Source of the DNA: Woeseiaceae bacterium
Lineage (GTDB): Bacteria > Pseudomonadota > Gammaproteobacteria > Steroidobacterales > Woeseiaceae
Assembly: GCA_041602775.1 (NCBI GenBank)
Contig: JBFIFN010000002.1
Span: 64,200-128,199, forward strand
DNA: 64,000 nt
Direction: 5' to 3'
Part shown: in pieces, positions 44,428 through 56,558 of the stretch
Position numbering within the stretch: position 1 is the first letter of the stretch
Layout of the letters: each line of letters opens with the position of its first letter
The notes under the pieces: generated by a model
The model's input: only the letters and a program-made list of their open reading frames with translations
Databases searched by the model: none
What the model was told of the DNA's origin: nothing
Translations under genes and position numbers: made by a program

Positions 44428-44625
44428 CATTGGCGCTTCCTGCGGTGTTCGATACCGACCTGGATACCTTTCGACCCTAAATCATTACCTCGGGGTCGTG
44501 TTCTGTCGGCAGCATTTGAGCAGGGCCGTTTCGACGGTAAGCCTGTTGCGGCCACGGCTGACCCCACCTGTTGCTCTGGTTCGAGAGCGACGGCTCGGTA
44601 ACGGCACAGGCGGGAAGCGCCTCCT
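44428..44625 (+). ncRNA. ssrS: 6S RNA (candidate)
   Basis: Canonical zapA-ssrS-ygfA position. A ~190-nt non-coding segment whose ends form a 12-bp closing stem (GGCGCTTCCTGC at 44432-44443 pairs with GCGGGAAGCGCC at 44610-44621). Further imperfect pairing follows (TACCGA/TCGGTA, GGGGTC/GACCCC), giving a long interrupted duplex. Confidence 0.6.
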
Positions 44626-44642
44626 TCCCCGGCAACCGCTGC

Positions 44643-45206
44643 ATGGTTGAGTCGATCCGTTCGCAGCGCGAGTACGCCCTCAGCGCCCGTCGCAACATGA
44701 CCGCCGGAGCGCGTGCGCGGGCTTCCGAAATTATCTGCGATCGCGTTTGCTCGACCCGCGCCTGGTATGCGAGCGACTCACTGGCGTGCTTCCTGCCCAT
44801 GCAGGACGAGGTCGATACACGAGAAATCATCGAAAGAAGTTGGCGCGCAAACAAGCGCGTTTTCGTCCCGGTTTTGCGCGCCAGTGCCGAAATGGCGTTT
44901 TGCGAGATGGCGCCCGACACGGAACTCGAACGCAACCAGTTCGGAATCTGGGAGCCCGTGCGCGGCTTCTTGATCAATGCGCGACTTCTCGATTTGGTCG
45001 TGACGCCGACGGTCGCTTACGACAGCTCTTGCAATCGTATCGGCATGGGGAGCGGCTACTACGATCGTTGTTTTGCCCATCTTCGCTATCGCCGCCATTG
45101 GGTTCGGCCGAAACTGATAGGCGTAGCGTTCCAATGTCAGGAAGTCGAGAAAATCGAGCCAAATCCTTGGGATATACGGCTTTATCGGGTTATTTCAGAC
45201 GCGTGA
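44643..45206 (+). CDS. ygfA: 5-formyltetrahydrofolate cyclo-ligase
   Basis: ATG at 44643. Motifs VFVPVL and GMGSGYYDR. Synteny downstream of zapA/6S RNA. Confidence 0.88.
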   Translation: MVESIRSQREYALSARRNMTAGARARASEIICDRVCSTRAWYASDSLACFLPMQDEVDTREIIERSWRANKRVFVPVLRASAEMAFCEMAPDTELERNQFGIWEPVRGFLINARLLDLVVTPTVAYDSSCNRIGMGSGYYDRCFAHLRYRRHWVRPKLIGVAFQCQEVEKIEPNPWDIRLYRVISDA

Positions 45207-45521: not shown

Positions 45522-46052
45522 ATGGCTACCAAAAAGAAGTCTCGTAAAAAAGCTTCGAAGCGCAAAGTCGCCAAGAAGCGTAAAGTAGTACGCAAGAAAG
45601 CAACGAAGCGGCCGGCTAAGAAGAGGGTCGCTAAACGCAAGACCAAGAAGAAAGCTGCTAAGAAAAAGGCGAAGAAGAAAGTCGCCAAGCGCAAGACTAA
45701 GAAGAAAGCGTCCAAGAGGAAGGCGAAGAAGAAAGTCGCCAAGCGCAAGACCAAGAAGAAAGCCAAGAAGAAGGCTAAGAAAAAGGTAGCCAAGCGCAAG
45801 ACCAAGAAGAAAGCTAAGAAGAAGGTAGCCAAGCGCAAGACCAAGAAAAAGGCGAAAAAGAAAGCAGCTAAACGGAAAACGAAGAAGAAGGCGAAAAAGA
45901 AAGTAGCCAAACGCAAGACCAAGAAGAAAGCTACTAAGAAGAAAGCTACGAAGCGCAAGGCGAAGAAGAGACCCGCCAAGCGCAAGACGAAAAAGAAGGC
46001 TACCAAGCGGAAGGCCACGAGGAAGAAGTCGTCCCGCAGAAAGAGACGGTAG
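45522..46052 (+). CDS. Lys/Ala-rich histone-H1-like repeat protein
   Basis: 176 aa, 93 of which are Lys by my count, with no Asp/Glu. Reiterated VAKRKTKKKA(K/S/T)K(K/R)KAKKK units. GGAGAA upstream of the ATG. A terminator array lies downstream. Confidence 0.8.
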   Translation: MATKKKSRKKASKRKVAKKRKVVRKKATKRPAKKRVAKRKTKKKAAKKKAKKKVAKRKTKKKASKRKAKKKVAKRKTKKKAKKKAKKKVAKRKTKKKAKKKVAKRKTKKKAKKKAAKRKTKKKAKKKVAKRKTKKKATKKKATKRKAKKRPAKRKTKKKATKRKATRKKSSRRKRR

Positions 46053-50450: not shown

Positions 50451-50822
50451 ATGTCATACGATCTGACCATCTTCAAAAAGGACAATTATTTGCATGCAAG
50501 AGTCATGGGGCAAAACAGCAAGGAGATTATTGAGCAGTATTTGGGTGAGGTTGTTCAGAAGTCCAAAGATGCTAAATGTCCTTATCTGCTGATCGAAGAA
50601 GCGCTCGAAGGACGTCGCTTGGATACACTGAGTGTCTTCGATATCGCATCGGAAGGAAGTGCCAAATCCCGCGGACTATTCAAAGCAGTCGCATATGTGG
50701 ATTTATGCGCTGAAGGCGAATTGATGAATTTTGCCGAAACTGTCGCTGTCAATCGTGGTTTGCCGGTAAGAGTCTTCCCGACAGTAGCTGAAGCCAAAGA
50801 ATGGCTCATTGATCAAGGTTAG
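50451..50822 (+). CDS. Hypothetical 123-aa protein (possibly STAS/SpoIIAA-like fold)
   Basis: Clean ORF in the lowest-GC part of the window. The family assignment is only an impression from length and alternating pattern (..YLLIEEALEGRRLD..VAYVDL..AEAKEWL). Confidence 0.55.
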   Translation: MSYDLTIFKKDNYLHARVMGQNSKEIIEQYLGEVVQKSKDAKCPYLLIEEALEGRRLDTLSVFDIASEGSAKSRGLFKAVAYVDLCAEGELMNFAETVAVNRGLPVRVFPTVAEAKEWLIDQG

Positions 50823-50924: not shown

Positions 50925-51410
50925 AGCGACGCTAAGAACCCTAGCCTTGAACGTCCGCTTTTGCGGAGAGATGTGAGTCATGAGCTTCCGAACCGGAGTC
51001 GCTGAGTTGGGCACTCATATAACCGCTTGATTTCCGTGGTCGTGTGACCACCGGTTTTCAAGAGTTGGATCACCTTTAAGTAAGCAACTGAGTCCTTTGG
51101 GTTTTCCGAGTATGCTCGGTTCTAGCCGCACTTTCCTGTCCTGCAGTGCGGTAATCTTCCCGCCGCGTACTGCTATCTATATCCGCTAAAATCATCACAC
51201 TACAGATACTTTTTAACGAGTTCCTATCTATCCCTGTGAGCGCTGCGTATTCCACGCGATTCCTGCCGCGGATTCCAGACCCAGCCTGCCACCGATGTCA
51301 CGGCAACGACAATTCAATGGCAGCAGAGTTGATTATGATCACAGTCGCTTGTTAGGTAAGGAACTTGCGTCTATTCTCCCTGTATACCGTAGGTCACTGC
51401 GGAGAACATC

Positions 51411-51611
51411 ATGCACCGCTCGCTCTTGCTTCGCCAGCGAATGATCGGTCTTTTTCTGCTCGGCGTGCTTTTGCTCTACTCGCCATTGTTGTCAGTGTTT
51501 GATACAAACGAAGAGCTGCTCGGCTTACCGGTCATTTATATCTATCTATTTAGCACATGGGTAGCGCTGATCGCACTGATTGCCTGGTTCGTCGAGCGCG
51601 GAAGGACCTGA
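51411..51611 (+). CDS. Two-TM micro-protein preceding the symporter-kinase (cbrX/small-subunit-like)
   Basis: GGAGA lies 6 nt upstream of the ATG. 66 aa with two hydrophobic helices. Its stop is 18 nt before the kinase ATG. Confidence 0.65.
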   Translation: MHRSLLLRQRMIGLFLLGVLLLYSPLLSVFDTNEELLGLPVIYIYLFSTWVALIALIAWFVERGRT

Positions 51612-51629
51612 CCCGAGAGTCTCGCCAAG

Positions 51630-54353
51630 ATGCTAGGTCCCCGCCTAATCGTCGTCTACTCTCTTCTCTACCTCGCTGTGTTGTTCGCAATCGCCTATTG
51701 GGCTGACAAACGCGCCGATCAGGGCAGGTCGGTGATCGCCAGTCCCTTGGTGTACGCTCTGTCCATGGCAGTTTACTGCACGGCCTGGACCTACTATGGC
51801 AGTGTCGGCCGCGCAGCCGGGACCGGCGTGGGATTTCTGCCGATCTACCTCGGTCCAACGCTGATCGCAATGCTTTGGGGAACCTTGCTGCTGAAGATGG
51901 TGCGGGTAAGTAAGACCCAACGCATCACCTCGATCGCCGATTTTATCGCTTCCCGTTATGGCAAGAGCCAGGTGCTTGGCGGGGTGGTGACTGTGATCGC
52001 AGTTCTAGGTGTGGTGCCCTATATCGCCCTGCAGCTCAAAGCCATATCGCGCAGCTACACTATTCTCCAGCATTATCCGGACATTCCGTCTCGCGAGTCG
52101 CTGCAGAATCTGCCAATCATGCAGGATACGACATTGTACGTTGCGCTCGCCCTGGCGGCGTTCACCATCCTGTTCGGCACCCGTCATCTCGATGCCAGCG
52201 AGCGCCACGAGGGCATGGTAGCGGCGATCGCGTTCGAATCCATCGTCAAGCTGCTGGCCTTTCTCTCGGTGGGAATCTTCGTTACCTATCACATACACGA
52301 TGGCTTCGCCGATCTGTTCGACAAGGCTTCCGTCGCCGGTGTGCTCACCACACACATCAACTTCCAGACAAGCGACTACGAAACCTGGTACTCGTTGACC
52401 ATACTGGCTGCGCTTGCGGTGATGCTGCTACCGAGGCAGTTTCAGGTGGCGGTGGTCGAGAACAGTAACGAGCGTCAGATACGCCGCGCGATGTGGGTAT
52501 TTCCACTCTACCTGTTACTGATCAATCTGTTCGTCATTCCCATCGCCATTGCCGGGCAAATTCAATTCGCTGGCACCGGAGTGGATGCCGATACCTTTGT
52601 GCTTACCCTGCCGATGGCGCATGCACAAGAGGGACTATCGCTGTTCGCGTTCATCGGTGGTCTGTCGGCCGCCACCGGCATGGTAATCGTGGAAACCATC
52701 GCGCTTTCCACCATGGTGTGCAACGACCTGATAATGCCCGGACTGCTGCGCCGCTGGACTCGGCTGCCCCCGCATGTTGATTTTAGCCGGGTACTGCTGG
52801 CCATACGCCGTAGCGCCATCGTGGTGATCCTGCTGCTGGGTTACCTGTACTTCCGTGTCGCCGGTGAGGCCTATGCACTGGTGAGCATAGGTCTGATCAG
52901 CTTTTCGGCGGTTGCACAATTCGCACCCGCAATGATCATCGGCCTGTACTGGAGAGGAGGCACGTACCAGGGAGCGCTTGCCGGTTTGCTGGCGGGCTTT
53001 GCGATCTGGATATACACATTACTTCTGCCATCATTTGCCAAGTCAGGATGGTTATCTGCGGATTTTCTGCAGCATGGTCCGTTCGGTATCGAACTACTGC
53101 GTCCACAGTCTCTGTTCGGGCTGTCGGATTTGCACGAGATCACCCACTGTCTGTTCTGGAGCATGGTTTTCAACATCGGGGCCTACCTGCTGTTCTCGTT
53201 ACGTCGCGAGTCGACCATCAACGAAGCCACCCAGGCGACGTTGTTTGTGGACGTACTAAAACGTGAGGCCCCGAGCGGCGTACCCTTGTGGCGTGGCAAG
53301 GCGGAGGTAAAGGAATTGATCTCCCTGGCTGAGCGTTTTCTTGGCGCTCAGAGTGCGCGCAAGGCATTTGAACTCTACGCGGCCAGCCGTGGGGCGCCGA
53401 ACGTCGAACAATTGCCCGCCGATGCCGCTACGGTGCATTTTGCCGAGACCCTGCTGGCGGGCGCGATAGGCAGCGCCTCTGCGCGGGTCATGGTGGCCTC
53501 GACCACGGCGGAGGAACCATTGGGCCTGGACGAGGTGCTGAATATACTCGACGAGGCCTCGCAGATACGCGCCTATAGCCGTGAGCTGGAACGCAAATCG
53601 AGCGAACTCGAGGCAGCGGGTCGCGAACTCAAGGTGGCTAACGAACAACTCAAGGAACTGGACCGGATCAAGGATGATTTCATGTCCTCGGTTACGCACG
53701 AGCTGCGTACGCCACTTGCATCCATTCGTGCCTTCTCGGAGATACTGGCCGACGATCCGGAGATTGAACTGCAGCAGCGTAAAAAATTTCTCGACATTAT
53801 CGTCACTGAAACCGAACGTTTGACGCGTCTGGTCAACCAGGTTCTGGATCTGGCCAAGATAGAATCCGGACATGCGAACTGGCGTATCGAACAGGTGGAT
53901 CTTGGGGAGTTGATTGGCGTCGGATGCGAAGTGAACGCACGGTTGTTCAGTGAGCGAGGTGTGCGGCTGATTGTCGAGCTGCCGGAGGTAACCTGCACCG
54001 TCAGCGCCGATCGCGACCGCCTGATGCAGGTGCTGGTCAATCTGCTTTCCAACGCAGCCAAGTTCGCCCCCGAGAATACGGGAGAGGTGCGGGTACGCCT
54101 GCGCCGTGATGGTGAAATACTCCGGGTCAGCGTGCGAGACAATGGTCCGGGTGTTCCCTTCGAGGATCAACAGGATATTTTCGAAAAATTCCGCCAGGGA
54201 AGCAGTAGCAGCGAAAGACCCGTGGGGACGGGCCTGGGTCTGCCCATCAGTCGCCGCATCATTGAGTATTTCGGTGGGCGCATCCAGGTCCAGAGCCGCC
54301 CCGGACATGGCGCAGTCTTCACCTTTGAATTACCTGCCATGGACGGTGGCTGA
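51630..54353 (+). CDS. Sensor histidine kinase with N-terminal sodium:solute symporter (SLC5/SSS) domain and STAC-like linker (CbrA/CrbS class, no PAS, no receiver)
   Basis: About 500 aa of SSS-like polytopic domain. Then AERFLGAQSARKAFELY..AETLLAGAIGSASARVMV, a coiled coil, H-box SSVTHELRTPL, N-box LLSNAAKF, and G-boxes DNGPGV/GTGLGLPI. Confidence 0.88.
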   Translation: MLGPRLIVVYSLLYLAVLFAIAYWADKRADQGRSVIASPLVYALSMAVYCTAWTYYGSVGRAAGTGVGFLPIYLGPTLIAMLWGTLLLKMVRVSKTQRITSIADFIASRYGKSQVLGGVVTVIAVLGVVPYIALQLKAISRSYTILQHYPDIPSRESLQNLPIMQDTTLYVALALAAFTILFGTRHLDASERHEGMVAAIAFESIVKLLAFLSVGIFVTYHIHDGFADLFDKASVAGVLTTHINFQTSDYETWYSLTILAALAVMLLPRQFQVAVVENSNERQIRRAMWVFPLYLLLINLFVIPIAIAGQIQFAGTGVDADTFVLTLPMAHAQEGLSLFAFIGGLSAATGMVIVETIALSTMVCNDLIMPGLLRRWTRLPPHVDFSRVLLAIRRSAIVVILLLGYLYFRVAGEAYALVSIGLISFSAVAQFAPAMIIGLYWRGGTYQGALAGLLAGFAIWIYTLLLPSFAKSGWLSADFLQHGPFGIELLRPQSLFGLSDLHEITHCLFWSMVFNIGAYLLFSLRRESTINEATQATLFVDVLKREAPSGVPLWRGKAEVKELISLAERFLGAQSARKAFELYAASRGAPNVEQLPADAATVHFAETLLAGAIGSASARVMVASTTAEEPLGLDEVLNILDEASQIRAYSRELERKSSELEAAGRELKVANEQLKELDRIKDDFMSSVTHELRTPLASIRAFSEILADDPEIELQQRKKFLDIIVTETERLTRLVNQVLDLAKIESGHANWRIEQVDLGELIGVGCEVNARLFSERGVRLIVELPEVTCTVSADRDRLMQVLVNLLSNAAKFAPENTGEVRVRLRRDGEILRVSVRDNGPGVPFEDQQDIFEKFRQGSSSSERPVGTGLGLPISRRIIEYFGGRIQVQSRPGHGAVFTFELPAMDGG

Positions 54354-54372
54354 ACACTCACCGGAGAAGCGC

Positions 54373-54738
54373 ATGAGCAACACCATTCTAATCGTCGATG
54401 ACGAACCGAATATCGTACTGTCGGTCGAGTTTCTTCTGAAGCGCGAAGGTTTCGAGGTGCAGACCGCGGCCGACGGTCAGGCTGCAATCGAGATGCTGGC
54501 CGCGAGTCGCCCGGATCTGATGATCCTGGATGTGATGATGCCGCGCAAGAACGGATTCGAGGTGTGCAAGGAGGTGCGCGCCGACCCGGCGCTGAGCGGT
54601 CTGCCTATCATCCTTCTTTCCGCCAAGGGCCGGGAAGTCGAAATTGCCAAGGGGTTATCCCTGGGCGCTGATGCATATATCACCAAACCGTTTTCCACAC
54701 ACGAACTGGTGGCCCAGGTAAAGGAAATGCTGAAATGA
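54373..54738 (+). CDS. Stand-alone CheY-like response-regulator receiver
   Basis: The ATG at 54373 gives 121 aa with ILIVDDE, DLMILDVMMP (phospho-Asp context), LSAKG and KPF. No output domain. Confidence 0.9.
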   Translation: MSNTILIVDDEPNIVLSVEFLLKREGFEVQTAADGQAAIEMLAASRPDLMILDVMMPRKNGFEVCKEVRADPALSGLPIILLSAKGREVEIAKGLSLGADAYITKPFSTHELVAQVKEMLK

Positions 54739-56207
54739 TGCGGAAGGACGAGATCGAACAGCGCGATACCTTTTTCCCCAGCATGAACGCTGACACCTGG
54801 GTGGGCGGGGCGCCGGCGCGGCTCCTCGTGCGTGGCAAGCCACGGGTTATCAAGCCGGACAGCAGCATTCGTGAGGCGCTGTTTCAATTCGGATCGGGTC
54901 GCGCAACCGCCAGCGTGGTCGCTGAACAGAAAGATCGTCCATTGGGCATCGTCGTCCTGAGCGATCTGCTTCGCGCCATAACCTTGCATCGTGTCGACCT
55001 CGAGGAGCCTGTTTACGCTCACATGATCGCCGCGCCCGCGACACTGCCGGCGGATGCCTCGGTACATCGCGCCCGCGTGACGTTCACCCGAGGCCATCTC
55101 GATCATTTGCTGCTGGTGGAAGCGGATGGGCGCATGCTAGGTCTGCTGTCTCCTTCCGATCTACCGGGTTATCGCGAAGGCGGCGCCGAGGACCTGGTGT
55201 ACCGCGTCATGTGCGCAAATGACGTCGAGAGCATGGCGGCTGCCGCCTACGCCGTACGTGAGCGTGCGAGCGAATTGTTCAATAATGGCATGGGGGTCGA
55301 TTTCCTGTTCGGCTGGATGTCCGGTCTGAACGATCTGATCAACATTCGCGCGATCGAACTGGTCGCCAACGAATTTGACTTGCCCCCGGTGTCCTGGTGC
55401 TGGATGGTGTTCGGATCCGAGGGACGTGTCGAGCAAGGTTTCGCCACAGATCAGGACAATGGCCTGATTTTCCAACCAGACCGCGAAGAAGATACCGACG
55501 AGATACGCCGGGCTTTTCTTCCGTTCACACGAGCGGTAAATCTGGGCTTGGACCAGTGTGGATTCAAGCTGTGCCCGGGCAACATCATGGCCGGAAATCC
55601 CGAGTGGTGCCTGTCGTCGCGCGAATGGCATGAACGCTTTTCCAACTGGATGGCGATGCCGGAACCCGAGGCAATCCTCAAAGCCACGATTTTTTTCGAT
55701 TTTCGCCCATTGTACGGGCAAGACGAACTAGCCGACGACTTACGCCAATGGCTGATGCCCCAGCCGGCCCAATACCCGCGATTTCTGCATTTGCTGGCCG
55801 AGCAGTCGCGCACCGCCAGCCCTGCATTGAACTGGCTGGGACAGATAGTCTGCGACAATGACGGCTCCCCGCATGGTGTTGATCTTAAGAAACGCGGCAC
55901 CCGGATATTCGTCGATGCCGCACGGATATGGGCCCTGCAACTGGGCTTGTTCACCACCAGCACGGTGGAGCGCCTGCGACTTTCCGGACCGGCCGTACAT
56001 CGTTCCACCAGTGACACCAACGCCTCCGTCGAGGCGCTAGATATCCTGCATCGACTGCGTCTGCAACGTCAGCTCTCCGGAGGAGATGCCGCTAGCATCA
56101 ACCGTGTTGATCCTCGTGAACTGACGAAGCCGCAGCGGATGCTGCTGAAAGAGGCCTTCAAACAGGCGCGCCAATTACAGTGGACACTGCAGCAGACCTT
56201 CCTATAA
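54735..56207 (+). CDS. CBS-pair + DUF294-type (GlnD-like, Pol-beta fold) putative nucleotidyltransferase
   Basis: ATGA overlap with the receiver gene. Two CBS-like repeats, an NTase signature GSEGRVEQGFATDQDNGLIF, and a C-terminal helical DUF294_C-like region. Confidence 0.8.
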   Translation: MMRKDEIEQRDTFFPSMNADTWVGGAPARLLVRGKPRVIKPDSSIREALFQFGSGRATASVVAEQKDRPLGIVVLSDLLRAITLHRVDLEEPVYAHMIAAPATLPADASVHRARVTFTRGHLDHLLLVEADGRMLGLLSPSDLPGYREGGAEDLVYRVMCANDVESMAAAAYAVRERASELFNNGMGVDFLFGWMSGLNDLINIRAIELVANEFDLPPVSWCWMVFGSEGRVEQGFATDQDNGLIFQPDREEDTDEIRRAFLPFTRAVNLGLDQCGFKLCPGNIMAGNPEWCLSSREWHERFSNWMAMPEPEAILKATIFFDFRPLYGQDELADDLRQWLMPQPAQYPRFLHLLAEQSRTASPALNWLGQIVCDNDGSPHGVDLKKRGTRIFVDAARIWALQLGLFTTSTVERLRLSGPAVHRSTSDTNASVEALDILHRLRLQRQLSGGDAASINRVDPRELTKPQRMLLKEAFKQARQLQWTLQQTFL

Positions 56208-56440
56208 CCAACTGACTGCCAGGCGCCACTGAAAATTGTTTATTTACCGCGATAGCGGCGCCAGCTCCGACCTCTCCGCAGAGCGGTCGTTCAATCGGCC
56301 ACTATTGGTGGAAGCAGCCATTCGCGACCAACTGGGGGAGAAGCATTGTCGCTCCGCGCCTCCGGCGCTTCGCGACATCACTGGCCTCAGTGCGGCTGCG
56401 TGAGTCGAACAGCGGTTCTCATCTCCACCTCCCCGACGCA

Positions 56441-56485
56441 AGAAAAGAAAAGAAAAGGGCCCCGCGAGGGGGCCCTTTCTATTTT
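56441..56485. terminator. Bidirectional intrinsic terminator between the DUF294 operon and tRNA-Gln
   Basis: Hairpin GGGCCCC-GCGAG-GGGGCCC (56457-56475). It is flanked by an A-rich run (AGAAAAGAAAAGAAAA, which is the U-tract for the minus strand) and by TTTCTATTTT on the plus strand. Confidence 0.75.
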
Positions 56486-56558
56486 GGCTGGGGGAGAGGG
56501 ATTCGAACCCCCGTTGGCGGAGTCAGAGTCCGCAGTCCTACCACTAGACGATCCCCCA
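56485..56558 (-). tRNA. tRNA-Gln (anticodon CUG)
   Basis: The minus strand reads TGGGGGA-TC-GTCT-AGTGGTA-GGAC-T-GCGGA-CTCTGAC-TCCGC-CAAC-GGGGG-TTCGAAT-CCCTC-TCCCCCA-G-CCA. This is a complete cloverleaf with a 7-bp acceptor stem and encoded CCA. Confidence 0.9.

What the first reader, a model, noticed from the sequence alone, without database searches (positions are those of the whole stretch)
51411..56207. Symporter-fused sensor kinase + micro-ORF + orphan CheY-like receiver + CBS/DUF294 nucleotidyltransferase: a two-component module with no DNA-binding output
Seen: four tightly linked plus-strand genes.
- A 66-aa two-TM micro-ORF ends 18 nt before the kinase ATG.
- The 907-aa kinase has an SLC5/SSS transporter-like N-terminal half, a STAC-like linker, HisKA and HATPase. 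It has no PAS domain and no receiver.
- A 121-aa receiver-only protein starts 20 nt later.
- Its stop overlaps (ATGA) a 490-aa protein with two CBS-like repeats and a Pol-beta-type NTase signature (GSEGRVEQGFATDQDNGLIF).
Established: CbrA/CrbS/MxtR-type SLC5 kinases normally signal to NtrC- or LuxR-type DNA-binding regulators. cbrA in Pseudomonas has a translationally coupled micro-ORF (cbrX). DUF294 proteins are uncharacterised GlnD-like nucleotidyltransferases that recur near acs/actP and SLC5-kinase loci, usually paired with a DnaQ-like exonuclease.
Inference: the only encoded outputs here are a CheY-like receiver and a putative nucleotidyltransferase. The exonuclease, acs, actP and any HTH regulator are absent. 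This suggests a solute-sensing pathway whose output is post-translational, either nucleotidylylation of a target or nucleotide signalling. To my knowledge this wiring has not been characterised experimentally.
Basis: partly seen in the sequence, partly recalled or inferred. Interest (0 to 1): 0.8.

Follow-up and report, generated by a model that had tools for sequence, protein, structure and literature searches.

The report
Transporter-like sensor kinase cassette with nucleotidyltransferase
A real, widely conserved but unstudied five-kilobase bacterial signalling cassette links a transporter-like sensor kinase, its small membrane partner and a receiver protein to a putative protein-modifying enzyme, although relatives show that the 'no DNA-binding output' reading is only a feature of this branch.

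Summary
One caveat: Pfam's SSF model does not hit the kinase. The transporter assignment rests on homology to the solved CbrX-CbrA SLC5-STAC structure (PDB 10ED, profile E 1.3e-88).

The cassette is not a one-off.
- Relatives of the kinase occur in at least 587 species.
- In 82 related loci the receiver follows the kinase in 79 of 79 testable cases.
- A conserved 64-66 aa hairpin ORF precedes the kinase in 77 of 81.
- Of 55 loci with at least 6 kb downstream, 52 carry a DUF294 nucleotidyltransferase and/or a PAS-RNase T exonuclease.

The window has the reduced form without the exonuclease (13 of those 55 loci). The fuller forms, mostly from Betaproteobacteria by record title, add the exonuclease. 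They often add DUF4212/SSS transporter genes, and 9 loci carry an OmpR-type DNA-binding regulator.

The nucleotidyltransferase model is closest to the protein AMPylases DrrA and GlnE. Twenty sampled family members showed no receiver-nucleotidyltransferase fusion.

Verdict:
- Observation confirmed.
- Interpretation partly supported.
- This is an uncharacterised variant of the SLC5/STAC kinase systems.
- It probably tunes solute or carboxylate uptake partly through nucleotidylylation. That mechanism is inferred, not shown.

The parts
51297..56274 (+). Extent of the cassette as a discrete unit
   Evidence: A metagenome contig 94% identical in DNA (L085) matches the window only over 51297-56274 and has unrelated flanks. 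GC is 0.515-0.59 here against about 0.64 in most of the window.
51349..51377 (+). Candidate sigma-70 promoter, TTGTTA-17 nt-TATTCT (inferred, weak)
   Evidence: Read from the sequence. A -10-like CTATACT lies about 35 nt upstream of the micro-ORF in 10 of 17 same-type loci. It is below the threshold of the promoter scan.
51411..51611 (+). 66-aa two-helix membrane hairpin ORF, a CbrX-like small subunit
   Evidence: A GGAG lies 7 nt upstream of the ATG. The ORF is conserved at 64-66 aa and 38-53% identity upstream of 77 of 81 kinase orthologues. Basic residues sit at both ends. It has no significant Pfam or PDB sequence match.
51630..54353 (+). 907-aa SLC5/STAC sensor histidine kinase
51645..53042 (+). 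SLC5 (SSS/LeuT-fold) transporter-like domain, residues about 6-471
   Evidence: Aligns with CbrA residues 9-452 of PDB 10ED. K207 corresponds to the CbrA Na2-site lysine K196 and is invariant.
53217..53495 (+). STAC-like linker domain, residues about 530-622
   Evidence: The profile alignment runs on collinearly into the CbrA STAC region, to CbrA residue 588. Alignment confidence is lower here than in the transporter part.
53670..54338 (+). HisKA (residues 681-747, H690 in HELRT) and HATPase_c (residues 794-903)
   Evidence: Pfam. Closest NCBIfam models are PnpS, WalK and PhoR type kinases.
54373..54738 (+). 121-aa receiver-only response regulator
   Evidence: Response_reg E 3.5e-31. D10, D53 and K105 are invariant, T/S83 is present in 81 of 81 and Y102 in 79 of 81 orthologues. 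Closest to YycF/PhoB receivers.
54735..56207 (+). 490-aa CBS-pair + DUF294 + DUF294_C putative nucleotidyltransferase. CBS pair about 54837-55163, DUF294 55254-55670, DUF294_C 55776-56201
   Evidence: Pfam. AF2 model pLDDT 84. Foldseek matches to DrrA and GlnE for the enzyme part and to AMP-binding CBS pairs.
56454..56478 (.). Bidirectional terminator-like hairpin shared with the convergent tRNA-Gln (56485-56558, minus strand)

Best explanation
This is a self-contained, horizontally movable signalling cassette of an uncharacterised branch of the SLC5/STAC 'transceptor' kinases.

Shown:
- The kinase has a CbrA-like SLC5 transporter domain that keeps the Na2-site lysine, then a STAC linker and a PhoR/WalK-like kinase core.
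- It is preceded by a conserved, tightly coupled 2-TM hairpin ORF that matches CbrX in position, size and predicted topology.
- It is always followed by a receiver-only protein with an intact phospho-acceptor site.
- Nearly always it is also followed by a DUF294 nucleotidyltransferase and/or a PAS-RNase T exonuclease.

Inferred mechanism:
- Binding or transport of a small solute by the SLC5 domain sets kinase or phosphatase activity.
- The solute is most likely a monocarboxylate or amino acid, judging from the DUF4212/SSS transporters linked in relatives.
- Phosphoryl groups pass to the receiver.
- The phosphorylated receiver, together with adenine nucleotides sensed by the CBS pair, controls the nucleotidyltransferase.
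- That enzyme has the fold of the protein AMPylases GlnE and DrrA. It would nucleotidylylate a protein target and so adjust solute uptake or metabolism.
- Where the exonuclease is present it may be the opposing 'eraser', or it may act on RNA. The window carries the reduced version without it.
- A DNA-binding OmpR-type partner elsewhere in the genome remains possible.
For: - Domain content.
- Homology to CbrX-CbrA, PDB 10ED. The preprint PMC13022988 shows that CbrX binds the SLC5 domain as a hairpin with both ends in the cytoplasm.
- Conservation of order: receiver 79 of 79, micro-ORF 77 of 81, exonuclease and/or nucleotidyltransferase in 52 of 55 complete loci.
- Reverse check: 3 of 3 further short-form DUF294 homologues lie in the same cassette, including one in a Desulfobulbaceae MAG.
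- Receiver active-site residues are invariant.
- Nucleotidyltransferase catalytic motif is invariant.
- Structural neighbours are DrrA and GlnE. GlnD itself gives a weak DUF294 hit.
- Overlapping or tightly spaced genes.
- Link to SSS transporters: 21 of 55 loci.
- Published genetics: the COG2905/RNase T protein is cofit with a DUF4212-SSS symporter (10.1101/072470). [quoted passage not shown]
Against: - There is no biochemical evidence for any step.
- No receiver-DUF294 fusion appeared in the 120 closest homologues or in 20 of 150 family representatives chosen by their length and where the match starts.
- The receiver is retained in loci that lack both enzymes (L043, L054, L069). An OmpR-type regulator is adjacent in 9 loci. 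The main output could therefore be transcriptional.
- The usual partner is a DEDDh exonuclease, which fits a nucleic-acid substrate as well as a protein one.
- The Foldseek TM-scores to GlnE are only about 0.5. The score to DrrA is 0.66 on the target's length but 0.48 on the query's.
- The substrate of the SLC5 domain is unknown. The pocket resembles that of CbrA at 6 of 8 positions, which neither proves nor excludes histidine.
Confidence: 0.4

Rival explanations
1. The real output is transcriptional. The kinase's cognate partner is an OmpR-type DNA-binding regulator encoded elsewhere in this genome. The receiver-only protein is a phosphate sink or modulator, and the nucleotidyltransferase is a co-expressed accessory that is not controlled by the receiver.
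For: - An orphan OmpR-type regulator (Response_reg + Trans_reg_C) sits next to the cassette in 9 of 82 loci, beside DUF4212/SSS transporter genes.
- The kinase core resembles PhoR/WalK and the receiver resembles PhoB/YycF.
- The receiver is 39% identical to the receiver domain of that OmpR-type regulator.
- The receiver persists where both enzymes are missing.
Against: - No such regulator lies in the 64-kb window or in any of the 13 complete loci of the window's type.
- The receiver is universal, whereas the OmpR-type gene is adjacent in only about 11% of loci.
- The receiver and nucleotidyltransferase genes overlap (ATGA) here and in L083 and L085.
Confidence: 0.3
2. The nucleotidyltransferase, with the exonuclease where present, acts on RNA 3' ends by tailing and trimming. 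This controls the stability or translation of transporter or metabolic mRNAs or small RNAs, so the output is post-transcriptional rather than post-translational.
For: - The usual partner is an RNase T/DEDDh 3'-5' exonuclease.
- Henriquez et al. suggested mRNA degradation by PP_0353.
- Pol-beta nucleotidyltransferases include poly(A) and CCA-adding enzymes (general knowledge).
Against: - The best structural neighbours of the enzyme part are protein AMPylases (DrrA, GlnE), not RNA nucleotidyltransferases, among the 50 matches listed.
- DUF294_C is a GlnE/KNTase-type helical domain.
- The window's branch lacks the exonuclease altogether.
Confidence: 0.15
3. The nucleotidyltransferase makes a nucleotide second messenger and the exonuclease degrades it, so the cassette is a nucleotide-signalling module.
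For: - It is a Pol-beta-fold enzyme with regulatory CBS or cNMP domains.
- DEDDh enzymes such as oligoribonuclease degrade linear dinucleotides (general knowledge).
Against: - No cGAS/DncV-type structural match appears among the 50 matches listed.
- No PADLOC or CBASS-type hit.
- No effector with a nucleotide-binding domain is linked to the cassette.
Confidence: 0.05
4. The adjacency is coincidental, or the micro-ORF is not a gene.
For: None beyond the small size of the ORF and the absence of database matches.
Against: Order, size and sequence are conserved across the surveyed loci from several bacterial groups, including a Desulfobulbaceae MAG.
Confidence: 0.01

Closest known systems
CbrX-CbrA / CbrB of Pseudomonas (structure PDB 10ED, preprint PMC13022988)
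   Same: - SLC5 domain with a lysine in the Na2 site.
- STAC linker, HisKA and HATPase_c.
- A small, translationally coupled upstream ORF predicted to form a 2-TM hairpin.
- The transporter and STAC parts align collinearly (E 1.3e-88).
   Different: - No PAS domain between STAC and DHp.
- The partner is a receiver-only protein, not the NtrC-type CbrB.
- The micro-ORF has no detectable sequence similarity to anything in the PDB, which holds the CbrX-CbrA entry.
- Two of eight pocket residues differ (A56 to T, F248 to A).
- A nucleotidyltransferase is in the operon.
CrbS/CrbR (MxtR/ErdR) of Vibrio and Pseudomonas with its target operon PP_0354-PP_0353 / pflu5625
   Same: - An SLC5/STAC kinase is functionally tied to a DUF294 nucleotidyltransferase and an RNase T-like exonuclease, and to SSS carboxylate transporters (ActP).
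- The role of the enzyme pair is unknown there too.
   Different: - There the link is transcriptional: the LuxR-type CrbR activates the pair's promoter. The kinase is a hybrid with PAS and a receiver.
- Here the nucleotidyltransferase is in the kinase's own operon with a separate receiver.
- Here it lacks the cNMP-binding domain, and in this window it has no exonuclease.
COG2905 pair next to DUF4212-SSS symporters (Sama_1525, Psest_0349; Price et al. preprint 10.1101/072470)
   Same: The same enzyme families sit next to SSS transporters. Genetic cofitness suggests they are needed for the transporter to function. Fuller relatives of this cassette have the same DUF4212-SSS neighbours.
   Different: As far as the cited passage says, no dedicated kinase and receiver accompany those examples. 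The window has no linked transporter.
GlnE / GlnD / DrrA protein nucleotidyltransferases
   Same: Pol-beta nucleotidyltransferase core plus a helical substrate-binding domain. They are the best structural matches, and the G-S...D-x-D motif is intact.
   Different: Sequence identity is only 11-15%. The target is unknown. There is no HD or second transferase domain for removal. A CBS pair serves as the regulatory module.

Membership tests
SLC5/STAC sensor histidine kinases (CbrA/CrbS kind) | N-terminal SLC5/SSS (LeuT-fold) transporter-like domain | tested here: met
   phmmer E 4e-72 and profile E 1.3e-88 to CbrA in PDB 10ED. tblastn with a bona fide SSF transporter hits the kinase's membrane region at E 4e-5. 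Pfam SSF itself gives no hit.
SLC5/STAC sensor histidine kinases (CbrA/CrbS kind) | STAC domain between the transporter and the kinase core | tested here: met
   The profile alignment continues collinearly through CbrA residues about 494-588, the STAC region of 10ED. Confidence is lower than in the membrane part. The AF2 model was too poor to confirm it.
SLC5/STAC sensor histidine kinases (CbrA/CrbS kind) | HisKA + HATPase_c kinase core | tested here: met
   Pfam E 4e-19 and 2e-30. H690 lies in the motif HELRT.
SLC5/STAC sensor histidine kinases (CbrA/CrbS kind) | PAS domain between STAC and DHp, as in CbrA and CrbS | tested here: not met
   No PAS hit. Only about 58 residues separate the STAC end from the HisKA start.
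SLC5/STAC sensor histidine kinases (CbrA/CrbS kind) | Cognate DNA-binding regulator (NtrC-, LuxR- or other HTH-type) | tested here: not met
   None in the operon or the 64-kb window. An OmpR-type regulator is adjacent in 9 of 82 related loci. The rest of this genome could not be searched.
CbrX-like small subunit | Small 2-TM hairpin ORF directly upstream of, and coupled to, the SLC5 kinase gene | tested here: met
   66 aa with an 18-nt spacer. Conserved in 77 of 81 loci, with spacers mostly -7 to 30 nt. Topology is inferred from basic residues at both ends.
CbrX-like small subunit | Sequence homology to CbrX | tested here: inconclusive
   No hit to any PDB chain by sequence or profile. Only weak Pfam hints: DUF3311 in 5 of 35 members and DUF4212 in 1 of 35.
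DUF294 / COG2905 nucleotidyltransferases | DUF294 (PF03445) + DUF294_C (PF10335) with an intact G-S...D-x-D motif | tested here: met
   E 4.5e-44 and 1.2e-31. G227, S228, D239, D241 and D322 are invariant.
DUF294 / COG2905 nucleotidyltransferases | CBS pair | tested here: met
   Pfam CBS with two stretches. Structural match to AMP-bound CBS pairs, target-normalised TM-score 0.82.
DUF294 / COG2905 nucleotidyltransferases | N-terminal cNMP-binding domain (canonical form) | tested here: not met
   Absent here and in the 120 closest homologues. Present in the roughly 620-650 aa forms.
DUF294 / COG2905 nucleotidyltransferases | Adjacent DnaQ/RNase T-type exonuclease | tested here: not met
   Absent from the window. 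Present in 39 of 55 complete related loci.
GlnE/GlnD/DrrA protein nucleotidyltransferases | Fold similarity of the transferase and helical domains | tested here: met
   Foldseek: 6yx5_B at E 5e-7 (TM-score 0.66 on the target's length, 0.48 on the query's). 3k7d and 1v4a with TM-scores of about 0.5.
GlnE/GlnD/DrrA protein nucleotidyltransferases | Nucleotidyl transfer to a protein side chain | not testable with these tools
   Needs biochemistry.
Single-domain (CheY-like) response regulators | Receiver domain only, with intact acceptor Asp, Thr/Ser and Lys | tested here: met
   121 aa, Response_reg only. D10, D53, T/S83 and K105 are present in 81 of 81 orthologues.
Single-domain (CheY-like) response regulators | Chemotaxis context or CheY-type sequence | tested here: not met
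   The best NCBIfam matches are the receivers of YycF, PhoB, RpaB and MtrA. There are no che genes nearby.

The most novel reading that the evidence does not exclude
A two-component system whose primary output is enzymatic. The phosphorylated receiver-only protein would switch on a GlnE/DrrA-like nucleotidyltransferase that AMPylates or UMPylates a transporter or metabolic enzyme. Extracellular solute sensing by an SLC5 'transceptor' would then be converted directly into a covalent protein modification. This would also give a function to the long-unexplained DUF294/exonuclease pairs of the CrbS/MxtR regulons, as writer and eraser.
Probability: 0.2. Interest if true: 0.8.

Novelty: new variant of a known kind. 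Interest (0 to 1): 0.55.

Why it matters
SLC5/STAC kinases (CbrA, CrbS/MxtR) are central carbon-metabolism regulators. The DUF294 nucleotidyltransferase and RNase T exonuclease pair is among their strongest targets in Pseudomonas, yet its function is unknown. Here the same enzyme family is wired directly into the operon of a dedicated SLC5 kinase and a receiver, in a family whose kinase has relatives in at least 587 species.

The window's version is the minimal four-gene form: small subunit, kinase, receiver and enzyme. That makes it a compact system for three tests:
- whether a phospho-receiver controls a nucleotidyltransferase;
- what the enzyme modifies;
- what the CbrX-like hairpin does.

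Every component belongs to a known family and the mechanism is inferred, so this is a good lead rather than a surprise.

Tried and rejected
- **Pfam SSF on the kinase.** No hit even at E<=10 on the N-terminal half alone. I replaced this test with PDB sequence and profile searches.
- **AF2 model of the full kinase.** pLDDT 58, too poor for a fold search, so not used.
- **Literature search for 'DUF294'.** Word-start matching returned mostly DUF2946 papers. The whole-word search found nothing relevant.
- **Micro-ORF against PDB and Pfam, as a sequence and as a 35-member profile.** No significant match, including to anything in the CbrX-CbrA entry.
- **Search for receiver-DUF294 fusions.** None among the 120 closest homologues. 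None among 20 of the 150 best representatives, chosen for odd length or match start. A scan of all 150 exceeded the residue limit.
- **Search for an unlinked exonuclease in lineages with the window-type cassette.** The named hits were all from Rhodocyclales, Zoogloea and similar, plus one Xanthomonadales MAG. This was uninformative.
- **Anti-phage defence reading.** PADLOC gave only generic domain hits. Rejected.
- **Conserved operator upstream of the cassette.** Only a -10-like CTATACT was found, with no shared repeat.
- **Mobile-element boundaries.** No convincing terminal repeats around 51297 and 56274. A 16-nt near-copy of the tRNA-Gln 3' end at 56332-56347 may be chance.
- **Exact-sequence look-up of the window's kinase.** Not on record.
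Full report
**1. The observation**

The four plus-strand ORFs exist exactly as described:
- micro-ORF 51411-51611 (66 aa);
- kinase 51630-54353 (907 aa);
- receiver 54373-54738 (121 aa);
- CBS/DUF294 protein 54735-56207 (490 aa).

The spacers are 18 nt and 19 nt. The receiver stop overlaps the last gene's start as ATGA.

Pfam finds the following:
- HisKA and HATPase_c in the kinase, with no PAS domain and no receiver;
- Response_reg in the third protein;
- two CBS stretches, DUF294 and DUF294_C in the fourth.

Pfam SSF does not hit the kinase, not even its N-terminal half at E<=10.

The transporter assignment is nevertheless sound.
- Residues 8-471 match chain A of PDB 10ED at E 4e-72.
- A 40-sequence profile aligns residues 6-622 collinearly with residues 9-588 of that chain at E 1.3e-88.
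- 10ED is the cryo-EM structure of the P. putida CbrX-CbrA SLC5-STAC construct (preprint PMC13022988). The alignment therefore covers both the SLC5 domain and the STAC linker.
- CbrA K196 fills the Na2 site and is proposed to make transport proton-coupled. It corresponds to K207, which is invariant in the family.
- Of eight residues lining the CbrA histidine pocket, six are kept or conservatively replaced (Y49, T51, W53, F69, Y73, F425). Two differ: A56 becomes T54 and F248 becomes A260. The ligand cannot be inferred from this.

**2. The micro-ORF is a real gene**

- It has a GGAG 7 nt before its ATG.
- An ORF of 64-66 aa with the motif QRL..FLLG..LF.YPLL.LF....GIP.LY.YLF..W..I.L.AW..ER precedes 77 of 81 orthologous kinases. 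The gaps are mostly -7 to 30 nt.
- It has two hydrophobic helices with basic residues at both ends. This is the topology the cryo-EM work reports for CbrX, which packs against TM3 and TM8 of the SLC5 domain.
- There is no detectable sequence similarity to any PDB chain or Pfam family. The only hints are weak hits to DUF3311 and DUF4212, the latter a small-subunit family of SSS transporters.
- I therefore call it CbrX-like by position, size and predicted topology. Homology is not shown.

**3. The cassette is conserved**

A scan of one genome per species with a kinase alignment found at least 587 species with a relative. The best 80 loci hold full-length orthologues at 59-77% identity. By their record titles they come mainly from Chromatiaceae and Thiodiazotropha, and from Rhodocyclales and Burkholderiales. 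Sedimenticola and Azospira loci came from exact-protein look-ups.

Survey of these loci with tblastn:
- The receiver follows the kinase in 79 of 79 loci with room for it.
- Among 55 loci with at least 6 kb downstream, 52 carry a DUF294 gene and/or a roughly 700-aa PAS-RNase T exonuclease.
- Of those 52, 33 have both, 13 have DUF294 only (the window's type) and 6 have the exonuclease only.

Going the other way, three further short-form DUF294 homologues all lie in the same cassette. They are from Thiocystis, a Desulfobulbaceae MAG and a metagenome contig. The Desulfobulbaceae version has the exonuclease upstream.

The 120 closest DUF294 homologues are all roughly 425-515 aa and show only CBS, DUF294 and DUF294_C. 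This short form appears dedicated to the cassette.

A contig 94% identical in DNA matches the window only over 51297-56274 and has unrelated flanks. Flanking genes also differ in every other genome examined. GC is lower here than in most of the window. The cassette behaves as a discrete, transferable unit of about 5 kb.

**4. What the relatives add**

The fuller cassettes, mostly from Betaproteobacteria by record title, show what the window's branch lacks.
- The exonuclease usually sits between the receiver and the nucleotidyltransferase.
- Some loci add a bare nucleotidyltransferase and a canonical cNMP-CBS-DUF294 protein.
- In 21 of 55 complete loci, DUF4212 small-subunit and SSF transporter genes lie beside the cassette.
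- In 9 of 82 loci an orphan OmpR-type regulator (Response_reg + Trans_reg_C) lies between the cassette and those transporters.

None of these is present in the window's 64 kb.

Two further points bear on the output.
- The kinase core is closest to PnpS, WalK and PhoR. The receiver is closest to the receivers of YycF and PhoB.
- The receiver is 39% identical to the receiver domain of the adjacent OmpR-type regulator of L054.

So 'no DNA-binding output' describes this locus, not the family. An unlinked OmpR-type partner cannot be excluded here.

**5. The enzyme**

- The AF2 model is usable (pLDDT 84).
- Its CBS pair matches AMP-binding CBS-pair modules, with target-normalised TM-scores of about 0.8.
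- Its transferase and helical domains match the AMPylase domain of Legionella DrrA and both transferase domains of E. coli GlnE (E 5e-7 to 2e-6).
- GlnD gives a weak DUF294 hit.
- G227, S228, D239, D241 and D322 are invariant.
- The family is large: 2273 clusters at E<=1e-30.
- Its N-terminal sensor modules are swapped freely: cNMP-CBS, CBS, cNMP alone, TerB-like, or none.
- None of the 20 representatives I sampled carries a receiver.

This favours a protein nucleotidyltransferase gated by small-molecule sensors. It gives no fusion-based support for control by the receiver.

**6. The receiver**

D10, D53 and K105 are invariant in 81 of 81 orthologues, T/S83 is present in all 81 and Y102 in 79 of 81. 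The alpha4-beta5-alpha5 region is strongly conserved. It is a working phospho-receiver. Its retention in the few loci that lack both enzymes shows that it serves the kinase first.

**7. Published context**

- Characterised SSS-domain kinases all pair with DNA-binding regulators: CbrA/CbrB, MxtR(CrbS)/ErdR, the EupR system, PrlS/PrlR and RpuS/RpuR (PMC7918813 and PMC9100948).
- The DUF294/exonuclease pair is a direct, strongly dependent target of CrbS/R and MxtR/ErdR. The examples are pflu5625 (PMC5715377) and PP_0354-PP_0353.
- PP_0353 and the SSS transporter ActP-I are both needed for normal growth on pyruvate (PMC9927547).
- Price et al. found the COG2905/RNase T protein cofit with a DUF4212-SSS symporter and proposed that it is needed for the symporter's expression (10.1101/072470).
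- I found no paper describing the operon studied here.

**8. Mechanism**

Most likely (confidence about 0.4):
- The SLC5 domain with its hairpin subunit senses or transports a small solute and sets kinase or phosphatase activity. The HELRT motif fits a bifunctional HisKA kinase.
- The receiver is phosphorylated.
- Together with the adenylate signal read by the CBS pair, it modulates the nucleotidyltransferase.
- The enzyme modifies a protein involved in solute uptake or use.

Domain content, conservation and fold are shown. Phosphotransfer, the coupling of receiver to enzyme, the target and the ligand are inferred.

Rivals:
- a transcriptional output through an unlinked OmpR-type regulator, with the receiver as sink or modulator (about 0.3);
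- action on RNA 3' ends (about 0.15);
- nucleotide second-messenger synthesis (about 0.05).

A defence-system reading is rejected.

**9. Novelty and score**

All parts belong to known families. The link between SLC5 kinases and DUF294/exonuclease pairs was already known at the transcriptional level.

What is new:
- a dedicated, widespread operon joins a PAS-less SLC5/STAC kinase, a CbrX-like ORF, a PhoB-like receiver-only protein and a short CBS-DUF294 enzyme;
- the window holds the minimal form without the exonuclease.

I rate this a new variant of a known kind, interest 0.55. It is a good experimental handle on an open question, namely what these nucleotidyltransferases do. It is not yet evidence for a new signalling principle.

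Noticed in passing
window 51297-56274 (compare L085:1193-6163): The cassette is a discrete 4,978-bp block. A contig 94% identical in DNA shares only this stretch and has different flanks (a sulfatase fragment and a YafQ-type toxin gene upstream). GC is 0.515-0.59 here against about 0.64 in most of the window. This suggests recent horizontal transfer. No terminal repeats were found.
   Followed up: partly
window 56332-56347 and 56485-56558: tRNA-Gln(CTG) lies on the minus strand just after the cassette. A 16-nt near-copy (88%) of the tRNA's 3' end sits 156 nt away. It could be a remnant of integration at the tRNA, or chance.
   Followed up: no
window 44434-44620: 6S RNA (Rfam RF00013, 64 bits). 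Its 3' end overlaps the start of a 5-formyltetrahydrofolate cyclo-ligase-like ORF (44571-45206), the common ssrS-ygfA arrangement.
   Followed up: no
window 45522-46052: A 176-aa ORF made almost wholly of Lys/Ala-rich repeats (KKAAKKKAKKKVAKRK...), resembling AlgP/histone H1-like proteins. This stretch also has a GC dip and strong AT skew.
   Followed up: no
window 50451-50822: A 123-aa ORF in the lowest-GC stretch, directly upstream of the cassette, has no Pfam hit. It lies outside the block shared with L085.
   Followed up: partly
L054:6456-13751; also L053, L065, L077, L081: In some Burkholderiales-type loci the kinase-receiver pair is followed by a convergent orphan OmpR-type regulator and one or two DUF4212 + SSF transporter pairs. 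In L054 there is no nucleotidyltransferase or exonuclease. This looks like the same sensor wired to a transcriptional output.
   Followed up: partly
L047:13484-16459; L055:5813-7699: Several fuller cassettes carry two DUF294 genes: a 356-aa bare enzyme and a 629-aa cNMP-CBS form. In others the cNMP-CBS form sits upstream of the micro-ORF, next to an SSF transporter.
   Followed up: partly
P0459, P0494 (DUF294 family representatives): Some DUF294 enzymes carry a TerB-like N-terminal domain in place of the CBS or cNMP modules. I had not seen this architecture described.
   Followed up: no
L087:1167-3524: The Desulfobulbaceae version places a 194-aa receiver-containing protein and a 567-aa RNase T protein upstream of the micro-ORF. 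The cassette therefore has two receivers there.
   Followed up: no
upstream of the micro-ORF in L001, L003, L006, L007, L019, L025, L040, L049 and others: A CTATACT (-10-like) element recurs about 30-45 nt upstream of the micro-ORF start in 10 of 17 window-type loci. Some fuller cassettes have CTATAAT. The window has TTGTTA-17-TATTCT at 51349-51377.
   Followed up: partly
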